Below are positions 2,533-58,802 of a DNA stretch of 60,274 nt, piece by piece. Each line of letters starts with the position of its first letter. The first letter of the stretch is position 1. The position numbers and the translations under genes are program-made. Under the pieces are notes generated by a model that made no database searches, had not been told where the DNA came from, and saw only the letters and a program-made list of their open reading frames with translations. The stretch comes from Mobula birostris. Taxonomy: Eukaryota. Location: the NCBI RefSeq assembly GCF_030028105.1, contig NC_092370.1, positions 68,001,638-68,061,911 on the forward strand, in the 5' to 3' direction.

Positions 2533-3086
2533 ATGTCAGTGGTTGGAAAGATGTTGGAGTCAACTGTTAAGGATGAGGTTATGGTGTACTTGGTGACACA
2601 GGACAAGAAAGGACAAAGTCAGCATGGTTTCCTTAAGGGAAAATCTTGCCTGACAAACCTAATGGAATTCTTTGGGGAGATTACAAGTAGGATAGATAAA
2701 AGGGACTCAGTGGATGTTGTATATTTAGACTTTCAGAAGGCCTTTGTCAAGGTGCCACACATGAGGCTGCTTATCAAGTTAAAAGCCTATGGCATTACAG
2801 GAAAGTTACTAAGATGGTTAGATCATTGGCTGATTGGAAGGAAGCAGCAAATGGGAATGAAAAGATCCTTTGTGGTATTTATACCACAGGCAACTATGGA
2901 GGCCAGGTCGCTGGGTGTATTTAAGGCAGAACTTGATAGGTTCTTGATTGGACGTGGCATCAAAGGTTCAGGGGAGAAGGCTGGGGAGTGGGGTTGAGGA
3001 GAAGACAAAAGGATCAGCCATGATTGAATGGTGGAGCAGACTTGATGGGTCAAATGGCCTAATTCTGCTCCTATGTCTTATGGTCT
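2533..3086 (+). mobile_element. CR1 LINE, internally deleted RT fragment plus 3' end
   Basis: ORF 2533-2997 contains QHGFLKGKSCLTNL and VDVVYLDFQKAF; the 3' tail ends ctatgtcttatggtct. Confidence 0.9.
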
Positions 3087-3221
3087 AAAACTGAGGGACA
3101 TCTGCATCATTGAGATGATACATTAACACTCTATTTGTTGTGGCTGGATGTTAATTATCCCTTGGCAGATTTGTAAAGAGGAAGGGAGACATTCCTTGTG
3201 TCCTGGTTCATCCGTTATTTC

Positions 3222-4512
3222 AGTTCAAAGTTCAAAGTAAATTTATCATCGAAGTGCAAATAAGTCATCATATACAACCCTGCGATTACCTTTTCTTATG
3301 GTCAATCACAGTAAATACAAGAAACACAATAGAATCAATGAAAGGCAACATCCAACAGGGCGGCCAACAACAAATGTTTAAAAAGACACGACTATGCAAA
3401 TACAAAACTAAAGAGAAAAAAGAAATAATAATAATAAATATGCAATAAATATTGAGAAAATGAGATGAAGGTCATCTTCTGGCAAGATGGCGCCAGTGAC
3501 CAATGGTGACACCTTGTAGGCAGCTTACAAAACTACTAGATATTCTTCTTCTAAATATACTTCTGAACTGCAACGATTGCAAACTGTTATTTTCCTTTTA
3601 AGGGTGTATTTTTGACTTGACTAAATGATCTGGTACTTCTGCAATCTCCTATGGGATTCAGCATGGATGAGAGACGAGAATCAATTCCCAATGGTGGAAA
3701 ATAAACCCATGGTTGGCTCCAATACTCTGTGCCAATTAAATTGTTGAGGAAAATTTACGTCATTGAGGACGAGCAGAAAATGAACAGGTGTTCAGTGTCG
3801 TCTGCCTGCACTTTACTGTTCTCCCTCCCTCCTCACTGCTGCTGGTGGGCAAAAGGTACAGGAGTCTCGCGTCCCATGTCACCGGGTTCAGCAGCAGCTG
3901 CTGCCCTGCAAACACCAGGCTTCTGGATGGGCTCCACTCAGCTAACACTGAATGCATGCTGCAGCTGTGGACTCACTTTTGAGGACCCTGCAGTTCATGT
4001 TCCTTGCATTTTTGTTTACTTCTTTTTTTTCGCTATTTGCATGATTTGATCAAGGTGCTTCAGTGCTGAACTAACTCTACACCTCTGGCTGCATTCATCG
4101 GCACAGCGCTGAAGACTTACTTTTGGGGACTCTAAGTTTAATGTTATTTGTTCAATTATTATTGTTTGCATTATTTGTTCTTCTTCACAGAATGGGTGTT
4201 TGGTGGTCTTGCTGTGTGGATTTTTTCCTTTAAGTGGGTTCTGTTGTGTTTCTTTGTTTTGTGGCTGCCTGCAAGAAGACTAATCTCAAGGTTGCGTACT
4301 GTGCACGTACTTAAATGATAATCAATGTGCTGAGTGAGTCCATGAAAGTGAGTCCACTTCAGTGGGAACATCTCAATGACGGGGTAAGTGAAGTTAACCC
4401 CTCTGGTTCAAGAGTCTGATGGTTGAGGAGTAATAACTGTTCCTGAACCTGGTGGCATGGGTTTTGAGGCTCCTGTACCTTCTTCCTGATGGTAGCAGTG
4501 AGAAGAGAGTAC
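3222..4512 (-). mobile_element. Rex1/Babar LINE 3' end, split by a nested insert at about 3471-4332
   Basis: Starts with the reverse tail ttcaaagttcaaagtaaattt. The sequence breaks at tgagatgaag (3470) and resumes at gagtccatgaaagtgagtcc (about 4336); the same stretch is contiguous in the copy at about 36305-36330. Confidence 0.75.
3471..4332 (+). mobile_element. Non-coding non-autonomous retroposon with a Rex1-like 3' tail
   Basis: 5' end TTCTGGCAAGATGGCG. The 3' end gcctgcaagaagactaatctcaaggttg resembles the Rex1 3' UTRs at about 14670 and 49550. Confidence 0.55.
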
Positions 4513-4575: not shown

Positions 4576-5432
4576 TGTTACGTACCCCGTAACTGGGTTG
4601 CCAAACCAGCAGAAATGGATCACTCAGTTGGAGTCTGGATTACTAGAACTAAGAAAGTTTTATTAAAGAAACAAGCAACACAGTACTCTAATCAAAAGGA
4701 TAATAAATGCAACAGTTCAGCAATGATAAACACACATGTACACAGAATTAAGATAACAGGATCAATCAAGCTCTATCGTTGTCTAGGGGTAAATGACCAG
4801 TTTCAAAGTGCGCAAGTTCAGTTCAGTTTAGTTCAGTTCGCAGACAGTGGGGGGAAGGAGAGAGAGAGCAAAACGAATGAATATTCAAACGGCTTCCACA
4901 CACAGACCTTCGCAGTCAGCTTTCGTTCGAGCCCTTTGTGATGTCATCTGAGGTCACCGACCGTGACCCCTCCATTTCCAGATATGATCGTTTCTCTGCG
5001 GTGAACCCAGCACCCAGGCAAGGGTGGACACACACCAGGTTCCTTTCCACCCTGTGCGTCTATGGCTTGTCCCGCGACCAGCCGTCCAAAAAAACTTCCC
5101 ACCGACTTGTGGGAGACGCACCGCTTCCAGGGTCTCGTTACCTCGGGGTGTCGTGTGTGTCTTGCCTTAGCGAACCTGTCCCTTTTTATCCCCCTGCTGG
5201 GGTATCGCCTGTCCATCACTTCAAACAGTTCAGGGTTCAAAGGGGGAGCCGATCTTGACAGCTCTCCTTCCGTTACTCTCTCCCGTCCCTTCATTAACAT
5301 CTCCAAATGCTGCTCCATTGTTTTCCTTATCTCTCTCTCTCTCTCCTGAAGACAGGTGGCAGACCAACTGCTGATCCCACTGGTGCCAGCACAGGCCAGC
5401 TAACATCTTAATCTATGTGTATTCTCGTCACA
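4576..5432 (-). repeat. 3' LTR (857 bp)
   Basis: Direct repeat of 8546-9412 with roughly 20 substitutions and a few indels by manual comparison. Minus-strand GATAAAAA TATA-like box at 5183-5190 and AATAAA at 4659-4664. Confidence 0.95.
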
Positions 5433-5444
5433 CTTCCCCCCTTT
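5433..5444 (-). promoter_or_regulatory. Polypurine tract
   Basis: Minus strand AAAGGGGGGAAG directly abuts the TG of the 3' LTR. Confidence 0.9.
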
Positions 5445-5549
5445 AAGGATTTTTACCGGGGTAAAAATTACAAACATAAATACATTATTTGATACACACA
5501 AATACACATCTTTATCAGCTATTTGGCTAATACAGCGAATTTGAAGTTG

Positions 5550-7130
5550 TCAACACCTGACAGACAGTCAGCCATCACATTTTCTGTTCCTTTTATATGT
5601 GTTATTAATAATCCCTTAGACCAGGCTCCAACTTAGCAAACTTCATAGTGGCCAAAAACACTGATGAATTGCGATCAATGTAACCTCTCATTGGGTTTCA
5701 TCCCGGACCACAATAACAAGGGTTGTCCCATTCCGACTTAGTTTTCTCTCACAAGGGCTTAGTAGGAGGGGGAGGGGTAGTAACCGCAGAGTTATTGCAA
5801 AACTTCCTACAGTACCCCACCATCTCCAAGAGCCTTCTGAGGGCCCTCTTGACTGTCGGGGTTGGGATGTCAGAGATAGCCCGCACTGTAGCTTGCATCG
5901 CTGCCAGCTGCCCCTGTGTCACCACAATTCCCAGGTAAGTGACCTTCGTGTGGCTGAACTCATTTTTTCCAAGGTTCAATATCAAGCTGGCTTCAGACAG
6001 CCGTATTACATCGCCAATACACACCTCTGTGTTCGTCAGCCCTTTAGTCACTGAATTACTCATTCTATAGGCATGTTGCTGGCTAGGCTGACCTAGTAAA
6101 ACAAACACCACCCAACGTCCCAGTTCTTTGCATTGCCTCGGGACAATCAAACACACGTGTGCGAGTCGTTTAAATACTTCTCCTAAAGAGTCGCTTTGTT
6201 CGGGGATTAAGGGAGAGACCTTATCAGCAGAGCTGGCCAGGACAATAGCCTTCTCCCGTCTGGTCGATACCATACTCATCTTTTCAAAATGGTTTTTTTC
6301 TCTTATTGGGGGACCCTAGCTTCATTGATTTCCACGCTAACACCGACTAGGTTTGTTAGCATATCAAAAGCCTGTGACCGTCTCATTTCGCGTCGGCCAT
6401 AATCAATAACATCCTTCCTCCGGTGCAGCCGGTAAACCTCTTTCATAATTCCACCAACTGTTTCCTCCAGCACCGCAAGATGTCCACCGGGGGGTACCTT
6501 GTGGGCCAGGTTAAAAATCTCATCCCCATAATTCTTTTGTTCCACCCCCCATTCCTCATCTGCGGGTACGGTACTTGGTTTCCCTTTCTTCCTTAGCACT
6601 TCCTCCTCCACCAAAACCATCAGCCCCTCGTTTTGCTCCTGCGCCTGCACAAATTCTTTCCTGGCTAATGCTAAGTCTGTCTCAGCTCCCTCACTACCTC
6701 TTGTTTCACTACACTCCTTCTTTTCACTTTCTACCCCCTTCTCGTACAAGGCTGGCAGAAACATCTCAGCTAAATTTACTACCACAGTCCCGTGATGAAC
6801 CTGTGAGTCCATGGGCGGGGCCTCAATGCTGGCAGGCTGACCTGTCAATCTCAGTGCTGGGAACACGATTCCCCCGGCGAGGTCATTACTGAGCAAGACT
6901 TCCACGCCTTTCATCGGTAATTCGGGCCTCACCCCGATCGTGACTAGTCCAGAGACCAGGTTGCTTTGTAAGTGTATCTGGTGCAAAGGCACGGCTTCCG
7001 TCCCTTTTCCAATGCCTTTGACCTTGACCTCCCCAGTCTGGGTCTCTGAGCTAAACTCTAATACACTCTTCAGTATCAGTGACTGACACGTCCCGTGTCT
7101 CTCCAGATCCGCACTGGAACTGGTTTTAAC
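5550..7130 (-). pseudogene. Collapsed pol relic, order PR - IN zinc-binding region - RT - RNase H
   Basis: VRIWRDTG (protease); AHKVPPGGHL...VYRLHRRKDVIDY (integrase N-terminal relic); VCIGDVI...LNLGKNEF...VTYLG...LEMVGYCRKF (RT, YxDD lost); HIKGTENVMADCLS (RNase H C-terminus, about 5556-5600). Confidence 0.85.
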
Positions 7131-7249
7131 CCCTCCTTCACTGACACCAATCCGGCCGAGATAAACTTCTCGCGCCCTTCCTGAACTTTGGCAGACCTGT
7201 CCTCTCCTAGCGGTTCGTTTACCAGCTCGATACAGCCCGTCAAAATCGC

Positions 7250-8072
7250 CGTTTTTCCTTTTCCCGTCTCCTTCTTTGGGGCAAAGCACCTGGACGCAAA
7301 GTGTCCGACTTTCCCGCAATTATAACAGACGATCCCAGGAGACTTCCTACCAGACTGCTCCCGGTCTACCTTATCCTTCTCACTAGTCCCCGGCTTACTT
7401 TCTGACTTTTCTGGCGGACTCTCCCCGCCGTCCTGACTACCCTTCTGGTAGCCTTTACTCGGGGCAAACTTCATTTTATGCATCAACGCATACTCATCCG
7501 CTAACTTAGCAGTTGCGGCTTACGTGGCTGCCTCTTTCTCATCTTGGTAGGGTCTCATACCCTCAGGGACACAACCTTTAAACTGCTCAATCAGGATCAG
7601 CTGTAGCAGTCTGTCATAAATCCCCTCTACCCCCTTACCAATGCTCACAATATGTCTGCATCTCACGGGCAAACTCTAAACACGTGCGGTCCCACTGCTT
7701 CCTCGCATTCCGGAACCTCTGCCGGTATGCCTCCGGGACCAACTCATAAATCCTGAGGATGGCCTCTTTCACCACCTCATACCTCTGGGCATCTTCCGCG
7801 GATAAAGCTGAGTAAGCTTGTTGGGCTTTCCCTTTCAGTACACTCTGAAGCAAAACAGCCCACTTATCCCTCGGCCAGTCCTGACTGGTAGCAACTTTTT
7901 CAAGATGGAGAAAGTACCGATCCACATCGGTATCGTCAAATGGGGGAACCAGCCTAACCTCCTGGGTTGCCCGGAACCCTCCACCTTGGTTCGGCACGGG
8001 CCCCTGCTCTGCCCTTATCTTTAACTTCTGTAGCTCGAATTCCCTTTCCCTCTGTTTCTCCTCTCGCTCCAA

Positions 8073-8107
<35 letters not shown>

Positions 8108-8446
8108 CTCCCTTTCTAACTCTCTCTCTTTCTCCAGCCTTTCTAATTGCTTCTCTTCGTGTTCTAACTGCCGTACCCGGAACTTGTGCTCGAGTCTCAG
8201 TTTTTCAAGCTGCACCTGTACCGCGTCTCCAGCAGGTTTTTCAATAGACACCACCTCCAGCTCGCCTGGGGGAAACACACCTTTAGATACATAGTGCTCT
8301 ACGATAGCTCTGTGTATCTCCTCTCTCCTCATTGTCGACTTCCCCTTAGCAAGATTCAACCGTCTGGCCACAGCTACCAATTCCGATTTCCTGGCATCCT
8401 CTAATGCCTCCAAGGTCGGCGCCTTTATAAATTCCTCAGCCTCCAT
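7250..8446 (-). pseudogene. Disrupted gag with coiled-coil, capsid/SCAN-like region and zinc knuckle
   Basis: ORFs 8021-8446, 7635-8072 and 7076-7486. Motifs VPPFDDTDVDRYFLHLEK, YELVPEAYRQRFR, LLQLILIEQFKGCVPE...AKLADEY (SCAN-like, with an in-frame TAA) and CYNCGKVGHFASRC. Confidence 0.88.
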
Positions 8447-8522
8447 TTATGCTGCTTGTCCTTTCTTTCTTTTGGGAATTTTGACCCAATCAATTTACTC
8501 TGTCCCAAATTTAGCGTTCAAA

Positions 8523-8541
8523 ATCGCGGACGAGAACCCCA
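8523..8541 (-). promoter_or_regulatory. Primer-binding site, tRNA-Pro-like
   Basis: Minus strand TGGGGTTCTCGTCCGCGAT, 4 nt after the 5' LTR, compared with the canonical Pro PBS TGGGGGCTCGTCCGGGAT. Confidence 0.8.
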
Positions 8542-8545
8542 CTTA

Positions 8546-9412
8546 TGTTACGTACCCCGTAACTGGGTTGCCAAACCAGTAGAAATGGATCACTCAGTTG
8601 GAGTCTGGATTACTAGAACTAAGAAAGTTTTATTAAAGATACAAGCAACACAGTACTCTAATCAAAAGGATAATAAATGCAACAGTTCAGCAATGATAAA
8701 CACACATGTACACAGAATTAAGATATCAGGATCAATCAAGCTCTATCGTTGTCTAGGGGTAAATGTCCAGTTTCAAAGTGACGCAAAGTTCAGTTCAATT
8801 TAGTTCAGTTCAGTTCGCAGACAGTGGGGGGAAGGAGAGAGAGAGCAAAACGAATGAATATTCAAACGGCTTCCACACACAGACCTTCGCAGTCAGCTTT
8901 CGTGCGAGCCCTTTGTGATGTCATCTGAGGTCACCGACCGTGACCCCTCCGTTTCCAGATACGATCGTTTCTCTGCGGTGAACCCAGCGCCCAGGCAAGG
9001 GCGGACACACACCAGGATCCCGCCGATCGTGCCTTTCCACCCTGTGCGTCTATGGCTTGTCCCGCGACCAGCCGTCCAAAAAAACTTCCCACCGACTTGT
9101 GGGAGATGCACCGTTTCCAGGGTCTTGTTACCTTGGGGTGTCGTGTATGTCTTGCCTTAGCGAACCTGCCCCTTTTTATCTCCCTGCTGGGGTATCGCCT
9201 GTCCAAACAGTTCAGGGTTCAAAGGGGGAGCCGATCTTGACAGCTCTCCTTCCGTTACTCTCTCCCGTCCCTTCATTAACATCTCCAAATGCTGCTCCAT
9301 TGTTTTCCTTATCTCTCTCTCTCTCCTGAAGACAGGTGGCAGACCAACTGCTGATCCCACTGGTGCCAGCACAGGACAGCTAACATCTTAATCTATGTGT
9401 ATTCTTGTCACA
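8546..9412 (-). repeat. 5' LTR (867 bp)
   Basis: Direct repeat of 4576-5432; adjacent to the PBS; minus-strand AATAAA at 8629-8634. Confidence 0.95.
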
Positions 9413-16910: not shown

Positions 16911-17286
16911 GTTTCTGTAAAGTATCCCCTGGTAGGGATTATTCTGGAGCTATGAAATCATAGATAGTGGTTATTAATTAAAATAAGAACCAGTCATCAG
17001 TAAATAAAACCCGTTCACAATTTAACTTTAACTGAGACTTTGGGGTCATTGAAACCTATCAATGGATATAGGACTTTGAAACTATGCAGGAGAAGACTTA
17101 AGGTTACATTAGGGAAGGCATTAAGTGGCCATCTCCTCTGTTGACACTTTGTTATAGGCATATCCATGCCATATAATGCACAGCTCAGGACAGATCTGTT
17201 TTATCACTGAATATTCAGGCTAGTTGTATATTTGGGGAGCTATTCCTCAACGCTAACAAAAGAGTTGGGTGTCTGGAATGTCTTGT

Positions 17287-17397
17287 AAACACAAAATACT
17301 CTGCAGATGCTGGGGTCAAAGCAACACTGACAACACACTGGAGGAACTCATCAGGTCGGGCAGCATCCATGGAAAAGATTGGTCGATGTTTCGGGCG
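17287..17397 (-). mobile_element. Short Penelope-terminal derivative, truncated inside the hammerhead motif
   Basis: Reverse complement of the 21430-21508 and 31695-31804 type sequence; keeps GAAACATC-GAC but lacks CTGANGA. Confidence 0.75.
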
Positions 17398-19812: not shown

Positions 19813-20405
19813 AACATGTTTCTCAGGCTCTGAGTTTAGGGCTGGCAAAGACTGCAAGCTTCTCACATCTTTAATGACAATAGGGATGAGTGCTAGAGTA
19901 GCAACTTGCTTTGAATCATTATTCTTTCAAAAATACTAAATAACATTTAGTAATGAGCTTCTAAATAAATATTTAAGGAGACATTAATATCCTTTGTTGC
20001 TAAGTTACATACAGACGGTCGTGTATTAAGTTGGTTTGCATTCCTGGAAAATTGTCCATACTGCAACTTTTCACAACACAAAGTCAAGAAATGCCTACTG
20101 AAAAATTGTATTTATTAATTTACTTATTTCACATTAATTCAGTGAGAATAATTATTAGTCTACGTACATCTTAAGTTTTGGCTGGTGATTTGTGAATTCT
20201 GAGGGCAAATTTCTGTTACCCGAACAATAACACAGGGTCATCTGCAAACTGATTCTTATTTGGATTTCTTTTTTACTTTAAAATAAAGGAATAAACATGG
20301 TGGGAAGTATTGGACCCAAAGCTCAGATAATTTAAAGGAAATCAGTATAATGAGAAAGCCTTTTTAAAGAAATTTAAAGAATTTTAAAGAAATTTAAAGA
20401 AATTT

Positions 20406-21508
20406 CAGAACGGAGATGTCTGCCTTCTTCAAAGAAAGAGGTTTCCCCTCCTCCACCATCAATGCTGCCCTCAACCGCATCTCTTCCATTTTGCGTGTAT
20501 CTGCCCTCACCCCATAAAGGATAGGGTTCCTCTTGACCTCACCTACCACCCCACCAGCCTCCACAGCAGTACACAATTCTCCGTAACTTCCGCCTTCTCT
20601 AACTGGATCCTACCATCATGCATATCTTTCCTTCACCCCCACTCTGCTTTCTGCAGGAATTGCTCCCCACGTGACTCCCTTGTCCATTCAGCCCTCCCCT
20701 CTGATCTCCCTCCTGGCACTTATCCTTGCAAGCAAAACAAGTGCTACACCTCCTCCCTCACTACCATTTAGGGCCCCAAACAGTCCTTCCAGGTGAGACA
20801 ACACTTCACCTGTGAGTCTGTTGGGGTCATGTACTATGTCCAGTGCTCCCGGTATGGCCTCCTGTATATCGGTGAGACCCAACATAGATTAGGAGACTGC
20901 TTCACCGAGTACCTACGTTCCGTCTGCCAGAAAACATGGGATCTCCCAGTGGCCACCTATTTTAATTCCACTTCTCATTCCCATCCTGACATGTCTATCC
21001 ATGGCCTCCTCTACTGACGCTATGAGGCCACACTCAGGTTGGAGGAACAACTCCTTATATTCCATCTGGGTAGCCTCCAAACTGATGGCATGAACATCGA
21101 TTTCTTGAACTTCCCGTAATGCCACCCACCCCTCCCCCCTCAGCATTCCCCACACCTCTTTCCCTCTCTCACCTCATTTCCTTGCCTGTCCAACACCTCC
21201 CTCTGGTGTTCCTCCCCCTTCTCTTTCTTCCATGGACTTCTCTCCTCTCCTGTTAGACTCCCCCTTCACCAGCTCTGTAACCCTTTCAACAATCAACTTC
21301 CCAGCTCTTTACTTCACCCCTTTCTCCCTCCCGGTTTCACCTATCAGCTTGTGTTTCTCCCTCCCCTTCCCCCCACCTTCTAATTCTGACTCCTCATCTT
21401 TTTTTCCTGCAGGCCTGCTGAAGGGCCTCAACCAGAAATGTCGACTGTACTCTTTTCCATAGATGCTGATTGGCCTGCTGAGTTCCTCCAGCATTCTGTG
21501 TGTGTTGT
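20406..21508 (+). mobile_element. Penelope-like retroelement, 5'-truncated (GIY-YIG endonuclease plus terminal repeat)
   Basis: ORF 20793-21017 FTCESVGVMYYVQCSRYGLLYIGET..RL...F.EYLRS fits a PLE GIY-YIG domain. Pyrimidine-rich 3' region and a mutated hammerhead motif at 21410-21447. Confidence 0.92.
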
Positions 21509-22419
21509 TTGCAAACCTTTTCTTATGATTATTTATGCTATCTTTTCCTGCTGTCTACAGAGTTTAGAAAATTCTCATGACTTTGTTATTCTGTTCGAAC
21601 AAGTCATGTATTCAAAGGTAAATTATGAATAAAGAGTTGTGAACAAGAAGCAAAATTATTTATGTACAGTGTAAAATGCTGCAGATTATTTGTTTTGTTG
21701 CATAGTTCTTTAAAACATTTTCTTGATTGTCTATTTAGATGATATTTAAAATGTGTAAGTTAAATCAACCTATATCTATCCTACAATAACTCCACTGTTA
21801 TTAAGACCCTGTTACTTGTCACCGTTCATCCTGTTGTTTGGATAAAAATCCTTAAGAAAGTACAGAGAACAGATTACTCCTAGTTTTATTTCCAACTGGT
21901 GACTGGTGTTGCAACTCTAACCTTGCATTTGTCTAGAAATACATCTCCGGCTAACAGTGTTAAATGTACCGCATATCAGCATCAGTGTCTTGCACTCTAC
22001 TTCCCAAATTTACTCCATTGACTAACAGAATAAATCTCAGAACCAGGACAGATCTCCCTGACAAGAGATCAATTTTAAGGGTCATATCTTTTGCCTTTCT
22101 CACCCTTTTTCTAACTGTCGCTGCCTTTCCTTCAAGGCCACCGCTTTGATATGGTTAACCCTTTAACCCTTTTTATTAAACCATTCCTTCTACTCAGTTT
22201 CTAATCCTTCTTCATCTTGCAGCCGCCACAAATCCATTGTCTCTAATCTACTGTTATTTTCATCCCTTCTTATCTCTGAACTTGGAGTTGGGCAATCCAC
22301 ACCAAGGGTGTGTGAAAGGAGCTACTTTTTAATCATGATGGGGATCAAGATTTTGAAGGCAGAGTTTTATGGCAGATTCACTGATTTGAGAAGTGACCAG
22401 TCCACAAGGGGGATTCATT

Positions 22420-29123: not shown

Positions 29124-31667
29124 TAAAATTTAATAGCATGCGGGCATAATTATTGCTCTTTGCTTTGGTTGCGTGGTGAATTTTGCAATACCAGGCTTGA
29201 CCAAGATATGGCTGATGTGCTTTGCAGTGACTGATAGGCACCCAATGAATTTATGCCAAAAATGCTTCTGTTAGATTTTTGTCTATTTTTGTTGCTTGCT
29301 TAAGTCAGTGAGGAATTTCATTAGTTCTTTCAACAATATTATTTATTAATTACTGATGCATGTAAGAACTTCAAGTAATATCTGAAAGACACTTCTTCAA
29401 TGTTATAGACTTCATGAGGCAGCATAAAATTGACAGTGCCTCTTTAACTGAATTAAAATGGACTTTTTATCTCTGAAGCACTGAAGAGAACATAATGTGC
29501 CAATGTCAGTTCTTTTCCCAATGCACAGGGTCTGAAAACTTAATCTTGCAGAAAATCTTGTACTACACATCCTTCTAAATAATTCATTGCTTTGCAAAGT
29601 ATGCTGTCTATGTGTTACAAAATGGATTCGTATATTAGACATTTATGTAATCTCCAAGCAGCTTAGAGATCTCACCCAAATATTTCTGCTTGGTATTTTG
29701 TCAGTATTAATTTAAAATAAACAATCATACAGTCATAAATGCATGATAAATTCAGTCTGTGAGCAAATCTTAAAATATTAGTCATGAATTACTTTGCTGG
29801 AACTCCAAACATATAAAAGTGTTAATGAGGGTATGGCTTATACAAACACAGTCTTTTACAGCTGGCAACACAGGTGGAAAACATAGTGAGAAGTTAATAT
29901 CTCATATCTATCTAGGATACTTTCAAATGTTTCAATATGAGTTCAGCAAAATGACAAATAGTTGTATATATTGGGCACAGTTAATTTAGCTGACTTTGCT
30001 CCCTTCTTATGCCTAGAAACTGGATAGACCCATTTCTATTGCTTTGAATTATAATCCATCATCTGAGTTGTTAATGTATGAAGTGAATCAGTGATTTTCC
30101 CAGTGGAATCTTGATAAGATTTCTGTACATTGTTTTGTAGTTTCAGGAAACAGACAAATAAATGTTTGAAGTACAAATAATCAGACATCAAGGTAAGTAT
30201 TCCATAAGCCTTTTATGACTAGACACATTCTTTAATTCTATTCCACAATATACAGAAAATATGCTATTTCAAAGAAAGGACATTACTGTCATAGAGGTTA
30301 AAGGGGTTTCTGGAGCAGTTAAGAATAGTGTGGCTATGGAAATCCATTTGGATACTTCCCTGTAGCTCTTATGGCACTAACTTTAATACTTCATTTCTTT
30401 GAACAAATTCTTTTGAACAACATCAGTTTGGTACTTTCTATTCTTATATCTGTTTTTATCTTATTATGCACGCTTTGCAAACCGCCTTCCGAGACTGTAA
30501 ATATAGGATACAGATAAACAAATCGAATAATAATCCTAATAGATTTGGCCACACAGTATCTGCAGATCACTCATGCATAATTGTGAGCAAAAGAATTCTG
30601 ACATTTCTTTCAAAAATTCTGGATCTCTGAGCTACACTGTACAATGGAGAAGAACCATGTCACAGTTAATGTTTCTCTTACAGACAGATGGCAGAAGTGG
30701 ACCATTGGGATTAGTGTGTTCATTCATTCAGATAGTGATGAAAGAGGATTTTCTAAAATATTTATCTGTTATGCACTTTAAAGCTGTAATACAGAATATA
30801 GAATGGAATGTAACCATACCTTAAACTCAAATGTTGACACAGGTTTTGAAACATCTTAGTTGCAAGGGCTATTCTTGTACACCATTACTTTTACAGTCAT
30901 AGAGTGACAGCAATAAACCTGGTTACAGACCTTTCAGCTCACCAGCCTGTGCCAACCATGGTGCCTATCCAGCTTGTCGCAATTTCCTGCATTCATCCCA
31001 TATCCCTCCAATTCCCATCTTCTACTTATCTATCCAAGTGCTACTATTGTACTTGTCTCAAGTATATGTCCTGGAAGCTTGCTCCATATACTCATCATCC
31101 ACCACTTCAAAAAGTTGCCCCTCAAATCCCTTTTAAGTATTTCTACAAAATCTATGCCCCATAGTTTTGATCTTCCCTACTCTGGGGAAAATGCTATTTT
31201 TATCCACCTTATCATAAGACCATAAGACATAGGAGCAGAATTAGGCCATCTGACCCATTGGGTCTGCACTGCCATTCAATCATGGCTGATCCTTTTTTTC
31301 AATCTCCTCCTCGATACCAGTTCCTGGCCTTCTCCCCATAACATTTGATGCCATGTCCAATCAAAAACTCATCAATCTCTGCTTAAATACACCCAACGAC
31401 CTGACTTCCACAGCTGCATGTGGCAACAAATTCCACAAATTCACCACCCTTTGGCTGAAGGAATTTCTCCGTATCTCTGTTTTGAAAGGGCGCCCCTCTA
31501 TCCTGAGGCTCTGCCCTCGTCCTAGACTCCCCCACCATGGGAAACATCCTTTACACATCTACTCTGTCTAGGTCTTTCAACATTCAAAAGGTTTCAATGA
31601 GATTCCCCCCCATCCTTCTGAATTCCAGTGAGTACAGACCCAGAGCCATCAAACAAACGTTCCTCAT

Positions 31668-31804
31668 TTCAGTTAGTCCTGACGAAGGGTCTCGGCCTGA
31701 AACGTCGACTGTACCTCTTCCTAGAGATACTGCCTGGCCTGCTGCGTTCACCAGCAACTTTGATGTGTGTTGCTTGAATTTCCAGCATCTGCAGAATTCC
31801 TGTT
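31668..31804 (+). mobile_element. 137-bp Penelope-derived insert carrying a hammerhead motif
   Basis: Interrupts the CR1; flanked by 9-bp direct repeats GTTCCTCAT (31659-31667 and 31805-31813); similar to the Penelope terminus at 21410-21508. Confidence 0.88.
31674..31711 (+). ncRNA. Minimal type I hammerhead ribozyme motif (putative)
   Basis: Stem I TAGTC/GACTG; core CTGACGA; stem II AGG-GTCTCGG-CCT; GAAA; loopless palindromic stem III (ACGT); GTC cleavage triplet ending at 31706. Confidence 0.75.
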
Positions 31805-34334
31805 GTTCCTCATATGATAATCCTTTCATTCCTGGAATCAACCTTGTGAACCTCCTCCGGACCCTCTCCAATGCCAGCTTATCTTTTCTAAGATGAAGGG
31901 CCCAAAGATGTTCACGATACTCAAGGTGAGACCTCACCAGTGCCTTATAAAGCCTCAGCATCACATCCTTGCTCTTGTATTGTAGACCTCTTGAAATGAA
32001 TGCTAACATGGCATTTGCCTTTCTCACCACTGTCTCAACTTTCAAGTTAATCTTTAGGATGTTCTGCACAAGGACTCCCAAGTCTCTCTGCATCTCAGAT
32101 TCCTGGATTTTCTCCCCATTTAGAAAATAGTCTGTACATATGTTTCTACTACCTAAGTGCATGACTATGCATTTTCCAACATTGTATTTCATTTGCCACT
32201 TTCTTGCCCATTCTCATAATCTGTCTAAGTCCTTCTGCATCCTACCTGTTTCCCCAACACTACCAGCCCCTCCACCAGTCTTCGTATCATCTGCAAACTT
32301 GACAACAAAGCCATCTTTTCCATCATCTAAGTCATTTATATACAGCATAAAAAGTAGTCCCAACACTGATCTCTGCGGAACTAGTCACTGGCAGCCAACC
32401 AGAAAAGGATCCTTTTTTTCCCACTTGCTGCCTCCTACCAACCAGCCAATGCTCTAACCATATTAGTCACTTTCCTGTAATACCATGGGGTCTTAACTTG
32501 GTAAGCAGCCTCACGTATGGCAGCTTGTCAAAGGCCTTCTGAAAGTCCAAATATACAACATCCACTACATTCCCTTTATCTATCTTACTTGTAATCTCCT
32601 CAAAGAATTCCAACAGGTTCATCAGGCAGGACTTTCCCTGAGGGAAACCATGCTGATTTTGTACTATCTTGTCCTGTGTCACCAAGTAACTCCATCACCT
32701 CATCCTTAACAATTGACTCTAACATCTTCCCAACCACTGAGGTCAGGCTAACTGGTCTATAATTTCCTTTCTGCTGCCTTCCTCCTTTCTTAAAGAGTGG
32801 AGTAACATTTGCAATTTTCCAGTCCTCTGGCATCAGTGCCAGAGTCCAACGGTTTTTGAAAGATCATTTCTAATGCTACCACAATCTCTAACGCTATCTC
32901 TTTCAGACCCCTAGGGTGCAGTTCCTCTGGTCCAGGTGACTTATGTAACTTTAGGTCTTTCAGCTTTTTGAGCATCTTCTCTCTTGTAACAGTAACACTT
33001 CTCTTCTTTCACACACAACATCAGGCATACTGCTAGTGTCTTCCACAATGAAGACTGACGCAAAATACTCATTTAGTTGATCAGCCATCTCATATTCCCC
33101 TTATTATTTGTCCTGCCTTGTTTTCTAGCGGTCCTATATCCACTCTCATTTCCCTTTTATTTTTAACATACTTAAAAAACTTTTACTCTCCACCTTGATT
33201 TTTTTTTGCTAGCTTGCTTTCATATTTCATCTTTACCCTTCTAACAAAGTTTTTAGTTGTTCTCTGTAGGATTTTAAAAACTTTCCAATCCTCTATCTTC
33301 CCACTAGTTTTTGCTTTGTTGTATGCCCGTTCTTTTGCTTTTTACAATAGATTTACTTCCTTCGTCAGCCGCGGTTGTACTATTTTGCCATTTGAGTATT
33401 TCTTCATTTTTGGAATACACATGTCCTGCACCTTCCTCATCTTTCCCAGAAATGCACACTGTTGTTGCTCTGTTGACGTCCCTGCCAGCAGCTCCTTCCA
33501 ATTTACTTTGGCTAACTCCTCTCTCATACTACTGTAATTTCCCTTACTCCATTGAAATATTGCTACATCAGATTTTACATTCTTCCTATCAAATTTCAAT
33601 TTGAACACAATTATATTGTGATCACTGGTTCCTAAGGGTTCTCTTACCTTAAGCTCCCTAATCGTCTCTGGTTCATTACTTAACACCCAATCCAGTATAG
33701 CTCATCCCCTCATAGGCTCAATGACAAACTGCTCTAAAAAGCCACCTGTTAAGCATTCAACAAACTCACTGTTTTGAGATCCATTATCAACCTGATTTTC
33801 CCAATCGATCTGCATGTTAAAATCTCCCATGACTACCATAACATTGCCTTTTTGACTTGCCTTTTCTACTTCCTGTTGTATCCTGTGCTCCACTTCCCAG
33901 TCACTGTTAGGAGGCCTGTATATAACTGCCATCAAGGTCCTTTTACCCTTGCAGTTTTTAAACTCAACCCACAAGGAGTCAACATCTTCCGATCCTATGT
34001 CACATCTTTCTACTGATTTGATGCCATTCTTTACCAGTAGAGCACACTACCCCCTCTGCCTACCTTCTAATCCCTCTGATATAATGTGTAACCTTGGACA
34101 TTCAGCTCCCAACTACAACCCTACTTTAGCCATGACTCACTGATGGCTACTTCATTGTACCTGGCAATCCTTAACATTGCAACAAGATCATCCACCTTAT
34201 TTCTTACACTACGCACATTTAGATATAACACCTCTCATACCAATCAATACCTCTCATAATTTTAAGCATTTGTACAAAGTCGCCATACATTTTCCTATGC
34301 TCCAAAGAATTAATTCCAATCAATATATTACCAT

Positions 34335-52055: not shown

Positions 52056-52153
52056 AATGAAGGGTCTCGGCCAAAAACATCAACTATACTCTTTTCCATA
52101 GATGCTGCCTGGCCTGCTCAGTTTCTCCAGCATTTTGTGGGTGTTGCATAGAA
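52056..52153 (+). mobile_element. Short Penelope-terminal derivative with broken hammerhead core
   Basis: atgaagggtctcggccaaaaacatcaact...cagcattttgtg; flanked by 8-bp direct repeats AGAGACAT (52048-52055 and 52154-52161). Confidence 0.8.
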
Positions 52154-58607: not shown

Positions 58608-58802
58608 AAGCACAAGAGATTCTGCAGATGCTGGAAATCCAGAGCAATACACAAAATGCTGGAGGAACTCAGCAGGTCTATGGAGAGGAATAAACAGTTT
58701 TTTTTTCCAACTGGGGCCCTTCATCAGGATTGCAAAGAAGGTGGAAGAAGCCAGAATATGAAGGTGGGGAGAGGGGAGGGAGTACAAACTGGCAGGTGAT
58801 AG
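58608..58802 (-). mobile_element. Penelope-terminal derivative nested in a LINE tail
   Basis: Minus strand CAATC-CTGATGA-AGGGCCCCAGTTG-GAAAAAAAA; flanked by GCA(G/C)AATATAGT direct repeats (58596-58607 and 58803-58814). Confidence 0.8.

What the first reader, a model, noticed from the sequence alone, without database searches (positions are those of the whole stretch)
31668..31804. 137-bp retrozyme-like insert with an intact minimal hammerhead ribozyme
Seen: a discrete insert with a 9-bp target duplication whose 5' part reads stem I TAGTC / CTGACGA / stem II / GAAAC-GTC / GACTG, with all core nucleotides present and a loopless ACGT stem III. Established: Penelope-like elements carry minimal type I hammerheads proposed to cleave as dimers, and retrozymes are non-coding hammerhead-bearing retroelements. 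Inference: a mobile, protein-free self-cleaving RNA unit in a cartilaginous fish, mobilised by Penelope RT. Because it keeps sequence 5' of the cleavage site, the template was uncleaved, multimeric or circular. Stem II is weak, so activity is uncertain.
Basis: partly seen in the sequence, partly recalled or inferred. Interest (0 to 1): 0.7.

Follow-up and report, generated by a model that had tools for sequence, protein, structure and literature searches.

The report
Penelope end piece with hammerhead
This 137-base insert is the short end piece of a very abundant Penelope-type jumping gene and carries a known kind of predicted self-cutting RNA motif; it is not a family of its own, but its sister copies mostly start at the motif's front edge, and rare duplicated ends stop exactly at the predicted cut site, which likely records where the element's RNA begins and, less surely, that it cuts itself in cells.

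Summary
The insert, its 9-bp target duplication and the minimal hammerhead are real. It is not a separate retrozyme. It is the pseudo-LTR and tail of a 3.5-kb Neptune-type Penelope-like element with RT and GIY-YIG domains; one 32-mer has 56,725 exact copies. Short and long copies share the same variants, and no arrays of the 137-bp unit were seen. Such hammerheads are published (PMC4209133), and uncleaved RNA is the main Penelope template in vitro (PMC11167929).

Two family-level patterns go beyond the papers I read. First, 19 of 100 copies start within the hammerhead's first four bases (+7..+10; +1 = 31668); genome-wide counts are 931 at +8 against 52 at +1, this insert's start. Second, in 20 of 82 rare back-jumps the upstream piece ends exactly at the predicted cut (+39) and joins +8. 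Only positions +36..+48 were screened, and no clean copy starting at the cut was found (0 of 20). Best reading: reverse transcriptase runs off the RNA's 5' end; cleavage in cells is suggested, not shown. The scan noted both patterns earlier on other DNA of this genome.

The parts
31668..31804 (+). 137-bp insert: 3' end (pseudo-LTR with tail) of a Neptune-type Penelope-like element
   Evidence: 97.8% to the 3' end of L062, which carries RT and GIY-YIG upstream; present in both pseudo-LTRs of the partial tandem L155
31659..31667 (+). Left copy of the 9-bp target-site duplication
   Evidence: single copy at the empty site in other host LINE copies
31805..31813 (+). Right copy of the 9-bp target-site duplication (first three bases also match the element's tail)
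31674..31711 (+). Minimal type I hammerhead motif (+7..+44): stem I, CUGACGA core, weak stem II, GAAA, loopless ACGU helix III
   Evidence: sequence; anatomy as in PMC4209133; commonest form in the family (50 of 161 descriptor hits identical); activity untested
31706..31707 (+). Predicted self-cleavage bond (+39/+40)
   Evidence: hammerhead numbering (established knowledge); 20 of 82 back-jump joints elsewhere in the genome end exactly at +39 and join +8
31674..31677 (+). Preferred 5' start of family copies (+7..+10, peak +8 = 31675); likely 5' end of the element's RNA
   Evidence: 19 of 100 copies; boundary counts 52, 931, 474, 171, 249, 143 at +1, +8, +10, +13, +40, +44
31730..31804 (+). Predicted long hairpin and tail; family 3' ends fall in two clusters (+94..+117 and +132..+154), the likely two RT start sites
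   Evidence: fold; 47 and 53 of 100 3' ends; two RT start sites bounding the tail shown for the anole element (PMC11167929)
31214..34065 (-). Host LINE fragment (CR1-like by recall) into which the piece inserted
   Evidence: self-BLAST of the window, reading frame 31584-32213 minus strand, empty-site alignments
20388..21511 (+). Older, decayed copy of the same element type: thumb/linker, GIY-YIG region, 3' UTR and degenerate hammerhead

Best explanation
The insert is the last 137 bases (pseudo-LTR with minimal hammerhead and tail) of an abundant 3.5-kb Penelope-like retrotransposon, likely copied into a LINE by that element's own reverse transcriptase and endonuclease from RNA that was not cut, or still held together, at the hammerhead. 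Shown: identity with the ends of coding elements, the target duplication, two clusters of 3' ends and a sharp pile-up of 5' ends at +7..+10. Inferred: the element's main RNA begins at about +8, so the hammerhead sits at its very front; RT primes at one of two internal sites about 100 and 135 nt downstream and runs off the RNA's 5' end, giving the common 100- and 135-bp stubs, while long copies come from priming at the 3' copy of the same site. This insert starts seven bases before the peak, so it likely came from a slightly longer RNA or from ordinary truncation of the 3' pseudo-LTR. More weakly inferred: a minority of RNAs are cut after +39, and RT that has run off at +8 sometimes jumps onto the free 3' end of the 32-nt 5' product, leaving [+8..+39][+8..tail] joints.
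For: Coding context. Copy number: 7,767 and 56,725 exact matches. No separate short family. 5' ends: 19 of 100 in 4 nt, 0.060 per nt against 0.0007-0.0047 per nt upstream of 0 and 0.000-0.002 downstream of +28; genome-wide 931 at +8 against 52 at +1 and 171 at +13. The peak is not only an inversion effect: 7 of the 13 copies with a clean target duplication start at +2..+10. In inverted copies starting at +8 or +10 the partner arm does not begin at +44, as stem I fold-back would need. Back-jumps: 20 of the 34 direct joins onto +8 come from +39, next +46 with 7; 26 of 75 joint types in 74 locus groups end at +39 (p 1.5e-10 against an even spread over 12 positions); the young subfamily has no microhomology at +39|+8. 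In 5 of 12 loci with a 5' stub, ORF start and second pseudo-LTR, both repeats start at the same base within one nt, as run-off plus end-to-end jumping would give. Literature: internal priming at two sites, uncleaved RNA as main substrate, protein-assisted hammerhead (PMC11167929); transcript starts inside the upstream pseudo-LTR (PMC2377424).
Against: No RNA 5' end and no cleavage were observed. The cap signature is mixed: an extra G precedes A+8 or A+4 in 19 of 27 back-jump joint types with extra bases (one locus counted twice), but simple +8 starts show G:A = 44:56 at the base before (my hand count of the 100 listed). Copies starting at the cut are only 1.7-fold above +44 (249 vs 143); 18 of 20 examined are inversions, many with microhomology, and 0 of 20 have a clean target duplication. 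The shared start points (-83, -35, -5, +19, +86) are not at +8. Boundary patterns differ in their anchors and +10 used pyrimidine flanks, so those counts are rough. The 100 copies are the first on one contig and include both arms of inverted pairs. Stem II is weakened (U for C at +31 in 70 of 97 copies). No RNA-seq reads began or ended at the cut in the anole study (PMC11167929).
Confidence: 0.7

Rival explanations
1. Independent non-LTR retrozyme: a protein-free unit of about 135 nt that is transcribed, self-cleaves in multimers, circularises and is reinserted by Penelope RT.
For: A recurrent short class exists (39 of 100 copies start in +1..+28). A few short head-to-tail hammerhead repeats exist: 72-nt trimer in L202, 32-nt trimer in L313, 36-nt trimer in L276, 40-nt array in L260. 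Animal retrozymes are proposed to arise from Penelope pseudo-LTRs (bioRxiv 10.64898/2026.07.22.740005).
Against: The insert is a monomer. No arrays of the 137-bp unit among 9 direct pairs within 500 bp in the loci scanned. Short and long copies share variants at 16 positions tallied; only +135/+136 lean (C at +135 in 8 of 15 short, 3 of 16 long). Ends match the Penelope tail sites, not a permutation at the cut.
Confidence: 0.07
2. Plain 5'-truncated Penelope copy from the 3' pseudo-LTR; the pile-up at +7..+10 comes from RT stalling or favoured joining at the edge of the pyrimidine tract or a splice acceptor, and the +39 joints come from the GTCGAC palindrome or RNA structure, with no cleavage.
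For: This insert starts at +1, off the peak. Upstream of +6 and +10 the sequence looks like a 3' splice acceptor; in Drosophila Penelope an intron ends at helix I (PMC4209133). The palindrome axis coincides with the cut. Secondary joint peaks at +42 and +46 need no cleavage. In vitro activity of such motifs is low (PMC4209133).
Against: No shared upstream exon was seen in 60 copies starting at +8 or +10. The drop upstream of +8 is about 18-fold, more like a template end than a pause. A palindrome explains inversions more easily than direct joins.
Confidence: 0.2
3. Solo pseudo-LTR left by recombination between the two repeats of a tandem element.
For: Solo pseudo-LTRs were attributed to recombination or deletion in rotifer Penelope (PMC3846280); the insert has a target duplication, as a solo repeat would.
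Against: Only 35 exact matches to the ORF-start 33-mer against 56,725 to the pseudo-LTR 32-mer; the two repeats of tandem elements seen here vary widely in length, so recombination would not give a peak at +8.
Confidence: 0.03

Closest known systems
Minimal hammerheads (min-HHR) in pseudo-LTRs of metazoan Penelope-like elements (Cervera and De la Pena 2014, PMC4209133; read parts 1-2 of 4 of the text)
   Same: Type I, 4-5 bp helix I, unpaired base before helix II, palindromic loopless helix III, place in the pseudo-LTR, mostly found as single motifs from truncated elements; reported in fish Neptune, Poseidon and Xena.
   Different: Helix II is short (4 pairs, two wobble) rather than long, and G10.1-C11.1 is G.U in most young copies; copy number is tens of thousands; that paper does not map copy ends.
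Neptune-clade endonuclease-bearing Penelope-like elements (Craig et al. 2021, PMC8557442; passages)
   Same: RT then C-terminal GIY-YIG, CX4CxxC linker, partial tandem, inverted 5' copies, optional 30-40 bp tail, heavy 5' truncation.
   Different: No tree was built, so Neptune against Nematis rests on the linker and on the report that only Neptune and Poseidon occur in vertebrates; the sharp 5' pile-up at the hammerhead edge was not in the passages seen.
Anole Poseidon element PAc (Frangieh et al. 2024, PMC11167929; read parts 1-2 of 4)
   Same: Two internal RT start sites bounding a tail; hammerhead near the ORF start; uncleaved RNA copied.
   Different: Other clade; the PAc ORF starts in stem II, here the likely start is at +180; no reads at the cut were found for PAc, while genomic joints here peak at it.
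Non-LTR retrozymes (Cervera and De la Pena 2020, PMC7229834, passages; Li et al. 2026, bioRxiv 10.64898/2026.07.22.740005, parts 1-3 of 5)
   Same: Short, non-coding, type I hammerhead, related to Penelope pseudo-LTRs.
   Different: Retrozymes are tandem repeats of about 170-400 nt with canonical hammerheads, expressed as circles; this is a 137-bp monomer with a minimal hammerhead, identical to the end of a coding element.

Membership tests
Penelope-like element, endonuclease-bearing (Neptune type) | RT followed by GIY-YIG endonuclease in the parent element | tested here: met
   L062 RVT_1 E 4.3e-5 and GIY-YIG E 2.2e-4, both just under Pfam's cut-offs; same order in L155
Penelope-like element, endonuclease-bearing (Neptune type) | Partial tandem forming pseudo-LTRs that hold the hammerhead | tested here: met
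   L155: 1,019-bp repeats at 2868-3886 and 6365-7383, unit 3,497 bp
Penelope-like element, endonuclease-bearing (Neptune type) | Optional 30-40 bp tail; inverted 5' copies | tested here: met
   3' ends in two clusters, 47 and 53 of 100; 44 of 73 mapped 5' ends abut an inverted copy
Penelope-like element, endonuclease-bearing (Neptune type) | CX2-5CxxC linker (Neptune/Nematis) | tested here: met
   CX4CxxC in L062 and L064 translations; definition from PMC8557442
Penelope-like element, endonuclease-bearing (Neptune type) | RT phylogeny inside the Neptune clade | not tested
   No reference set was fetched and no tree built
Minimal type I hammerhead (min-HHR) | CUGANGA and GAAA core, UH triplet, helices I and II, palindromic helix III | tested here: met
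   Sequence, descriptor scan
Minimal type I hammerhead (min-HHR) | G10.1-C11.1 pair | tested here: not met
   G.U in the insert and in 70 of 97 sampled young copies; G-C in 23 of 97 and in the majority of 46 older or divergent copies
Minimal type I hammerhead (min-HHR) | Covariation in stems between families | tested here: inconclusive
   Old-to-young changes keep pairing on one side only (C-G to U.G, G-C to G.U) or hit the free core base and loop II, while flanks differ; no two-sided change seen
Minimal type I hammerhead (min-HHR) | Self-cleavage, as a dimer or with protein help | not testable with these tools
   Indirect only: joints at +39; no clean copies from +40
Non-LTR retrozyme | At least two tandem units each with a hammerhead | tested here: not met
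   Monomer; no tandem repeat at the site; only rare 32-72 nt stutters elsewhere
Non-LTR retrozyme | Family with its own sequence, apart from coding elements | tested here: not met
   One base from the majority of 100 copies; short and long copies share variants
Non-LTR retrozyme | Canonical hammerhead with helix III loop; monomer about 170-400 nt | tested here: not met
   Loopless helix III, 137 bp; definition from PMC7229834
Non-LTR retrozyme | Expressed as circular RNA | not testable with these tools
   Needs RNase R or divergent RT-PCR

The most novel reading that the evidence does not exclude
The genome holds a fossil record of the Penelope cycle: the RNA starts at the hammerhead's first base, RT primes 100-135 nt downstream and runs off to make strong-stop-like stubs, then jumps end-to-end onto free RNA 3' ends. 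The commonest such end nearby is the ribozyme's own 5' cleavage product, which would be in-cell evidence that animal minimal hammerheads cut; the same jump would explain how pseudo-LTRs and seed retrozyme repeats arise.
Probability: 0.4. Interest if true: 0.68.

Novelty: new member of a known kind. Interest (0 to 1): 0.42.

Why it matters
The insert alone is ordinary. The family matters because two open points in Penelope biology become testable with tens of thousands of copies: what the hammerhead does (called unclear in PMC8557442; no in vivo evidence in PMC4209133; no reads at the cut in PMC11167929) and how pseudo-LTRs are regenerated ('no obvious mechanism' in PMC2377424). The data name exact positions to test: an RNA start at +8, RT starts near +107 and +142, and a 32-nt 5' cleavage product ending at +39.

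Tried and rejected
Rfam scan: no hammerhead family at E<=10. DNA search of the own genome with the insert returned nothing because common words are skipped; exact patterns were used instead. Cap-G at +8: suggested by 5 of 6 copies, not borne out by 44 G: 56 A in the 100 places listed (hand count). Copies made from the 3' cleavage product: 0 of 20 clean insertions at +40, against 1 of 20 at the +44 control. Stem I fold-back as cause of the +8 peak: rejected, partner arms begin at scattered positions. Spliced upstream exon: none shared among 60 copies. Separate short subfamily: rejected. RNA evidence: no RNA holder listed; four runs laid were contigs of uncertain kind and cannot show RNA ends. 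Folding energy does not single out the motif; cofolding of two copies did not give the double hammerhead as the lowest-energy form. Lunse et al. on dimer cleavage is not held and was seen only as cited in PMC6765202 (passages). Paper searches listed no title or abstract opening on genomic joints at a Penelope hammerhead cut or a 5' pile-up at its edge; subscription papers and Repbase were not searched, and no supplements were read (those of the 2026 preprint, which sampled one cartilaginous fish, may list this family). Back-jump sites outside +36..+48 were not counted genome-wide, so the rank of +39 among all sites is open.

Full report
Numbering: +1 = window 31668. 'Boundary count' means exact genome-wide matches to the element from a given base onward, preceded by two bases that both differ from the element.

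Observation. The 137-bp insert and its 9-bp duplication are at the stated places. It sits in a LINE fragment on the minus strand (CR1-like by recall). The joined flanks gave 37 spanning hits in other copies of that LINE, and the 14 printed lack the insert. The hammerhead spans +7..+44 with the predicted cut after C+39 (31706). Rfam does not score it and its folding energy is unremarkable; it matches the published minimal hammerhead of Penelope pseudo-LTRs (PMC4209133). Stem II closes with G.U, not the usual G-C: -2.5 against -5.1 kcal/mol.

What it is. The first 31 bases occur exactly 7,767 times in the 4.0-Gb genome and a 32-mer at +63 occurs 56,725 times. None of the 30 loci starts at the insert's boundary. 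L062 carries RT, a CX4CxxC linker, GIY-YIG, a 3' UTR and then the insert sequence at 97.8% (both Pfam scores are just under cut-off). L155 is a partial tandem: a 1,019-bp upstream repeat, a 3,497-bp unit with a frameshifted ORF whose likely ATG is at +180, and the insert sequence in both repeats. The window holds an older copy with the endonuclease region at 20388-21511 and three more stubs. This is the standard anatomy of endonuclease-bearing Penelope-like elements (PMC8557442); Neptune is likely but no tree was built.

Is there a separate short family? In all 100 places listed, aligned to L062 up to 420 nt upstream, 36 reach the endonuclease coding region. The 27 short copies (+1..+14 start), 39 long copies and the rest share the same variants; the insert differs from the majority at one base. 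Among loci held, 9 same-strand hammerhead pairs lay within 500 bp; none was an array of the 137-bp unit. The retrozyme definition (tandem units, canonical hammerhead, 170-400 nt, circles; PMC7229834; bioRxiv 10.64898/2026.07.22.740005) is not met.

Where copies end. 3' ends fall at +94..+117 (47 of 100) and +132..+154 (53 of 100), as expected from two RT start sites around the tail (PMC11167929). 5' ends: 19 of 100 at +7..+10, 39 at +1..+28, 2 at +36..+44. The rate is 0.060 per base in the peak against 0.0007-0.0047 upstream of 0. Boundary counts are 52 (+1), 931 (+8), 474 (+10), 171 (+13), 249 (+40) and 143 (+44); anchors differ, so ratios are rough. Of 73 mapped ends, 44 abut an inverted copy and 13 have a clean target duplication; 7 of those 13 start at +2..+10. 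Sixty copies chosen for starts at +8 or +10 showed no shared upstream exon and no fixed partner breakpoint at +44. A template end fits best. The bases +6..+12 match a YYANWYY initiator (motif recalled), but such matches are common, and the same bases resemble a splice acceptor. A cap signature was not seen in simple +8 starts (44 G: 56 A, hand count of the 100 listed) but appears in back-jump joints (19 of 27 joint types with extra bases end in G).

Trace of cleavage. One locus (L117) had a duplication ending at +39, so I searched for upstream units ending in +36..+48 followed by a restart at or before +8. There were 82 matches, all fetched and parsed: 20 are direct +39|+8 joins at 18 loci, out of 34 direct joins onto +8; the next site is +46 with 7. 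By the script's rule 26 of 75 joint types end at +39 (p 1.5e-10 against an even spread); three of these are ambiguous by CpG decay, and four more joints scored at +40 could lie at +37..+40. The young subfamily has no microhomology at +39|+8. End-to-end jumping onto a free 3' end (known for R2 RT; recalled) would give this if the 5' cleavage product exists. Against: the search window was narrow; seven unselected loci had upstream ends at seven different places, one at +39; starts at +40 are only 1.7-fold over +44, 18 of 20 examined are inversions and none has a target duplication; the palindrome axis coincides with the cut. RNA runs gave contigs only.

Pseudo-LTR clue. Of the first 30 of 35 loci with the ORF start, 12 show a 5' stub, a piece of ORF, then a second pseudo-LTR; in 5 both repeats begin at the same base within one nt (-83, -35, -5, +19, +86). 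This fits run-off followed by a jump on the same RNA, but these starts are not at +8.

Conservation. The majority of 46 older or divergent copies keeps the core and stems with different flanks; changes to the young family are one-sided or in free positions, with no two-sided change.

Comparison and novelty. The motif type and its host element are published; low activity and dimer dependence are reported (PMC4209133; review PMC6765202, passages), and uncleaved RNA is the main template in vitro (PMC11167929), so keeping sequence 5' of the cut does not imply a circle. The 5' pile-up and the +39 joints were not found in searches. Earlier notes of this scan report both on other DNA of this genome; I reached them before that look-up and do not count the notes as support. 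One note warns of an equally used second site, which I could only partly check.

Verdict. Observation confirmed; retrozyme reading not supported; new member of a known kind. Interest 0.42, carried by the family-level end patterns.

Noticed in passing
window 31727-31777 (+60..+110) and L155:3804-3926: An ATG at +60 (mutated in this insert) is in frame with the main ORF but is cut by TGA at codon 17 in 95 of 102 young copies measured; older copies appear to have TGG there (by eye). The young family may have moved its start to +180, or reads through.
   Followed up: partly
L159, L164, L165, L167, L169: Stub-ORF piece-stub structures whose two pseudo-LTRs start at the same base; a possible route to pseudo-LTR formation by run-off and jump.
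   Followed up: partly
L202, L215, L260, L276, L313: Short head-to-tail repeats of hammerhead pieces (72, 52, 40, 36 and 32 nt units), all restarting at +4..+8; possible seeds of retrozyme-like repeats.
   Followed up: partly
L255, L270, L276, L297, L312 (and L280, L305): A recurrent joint class ends at +38, adds one G and restarts at A+4 (five loci) or A+8 (two loci); may mark a second capped start at +4.
   Followed up: no
window 4576-9412: LTR retrotransposon-like element: 94% identical direct repeats at 4576-5432 and 8546-9412 around broken gag-, protease- and RT-like frames on the minus strand (labels recalled).
   Followed up: no
window 20388-21511, 52059-52147, 58619-58799, 17285-17396: Four older copies of the same Penelope-like family with decayed hammerheads.
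   Followed up: partly
L175-L178: Four near-identical tandem element copies on contig C17 sharing the same internal change near -178; possibly one expanded locus or a recent master.
   Followed up: no
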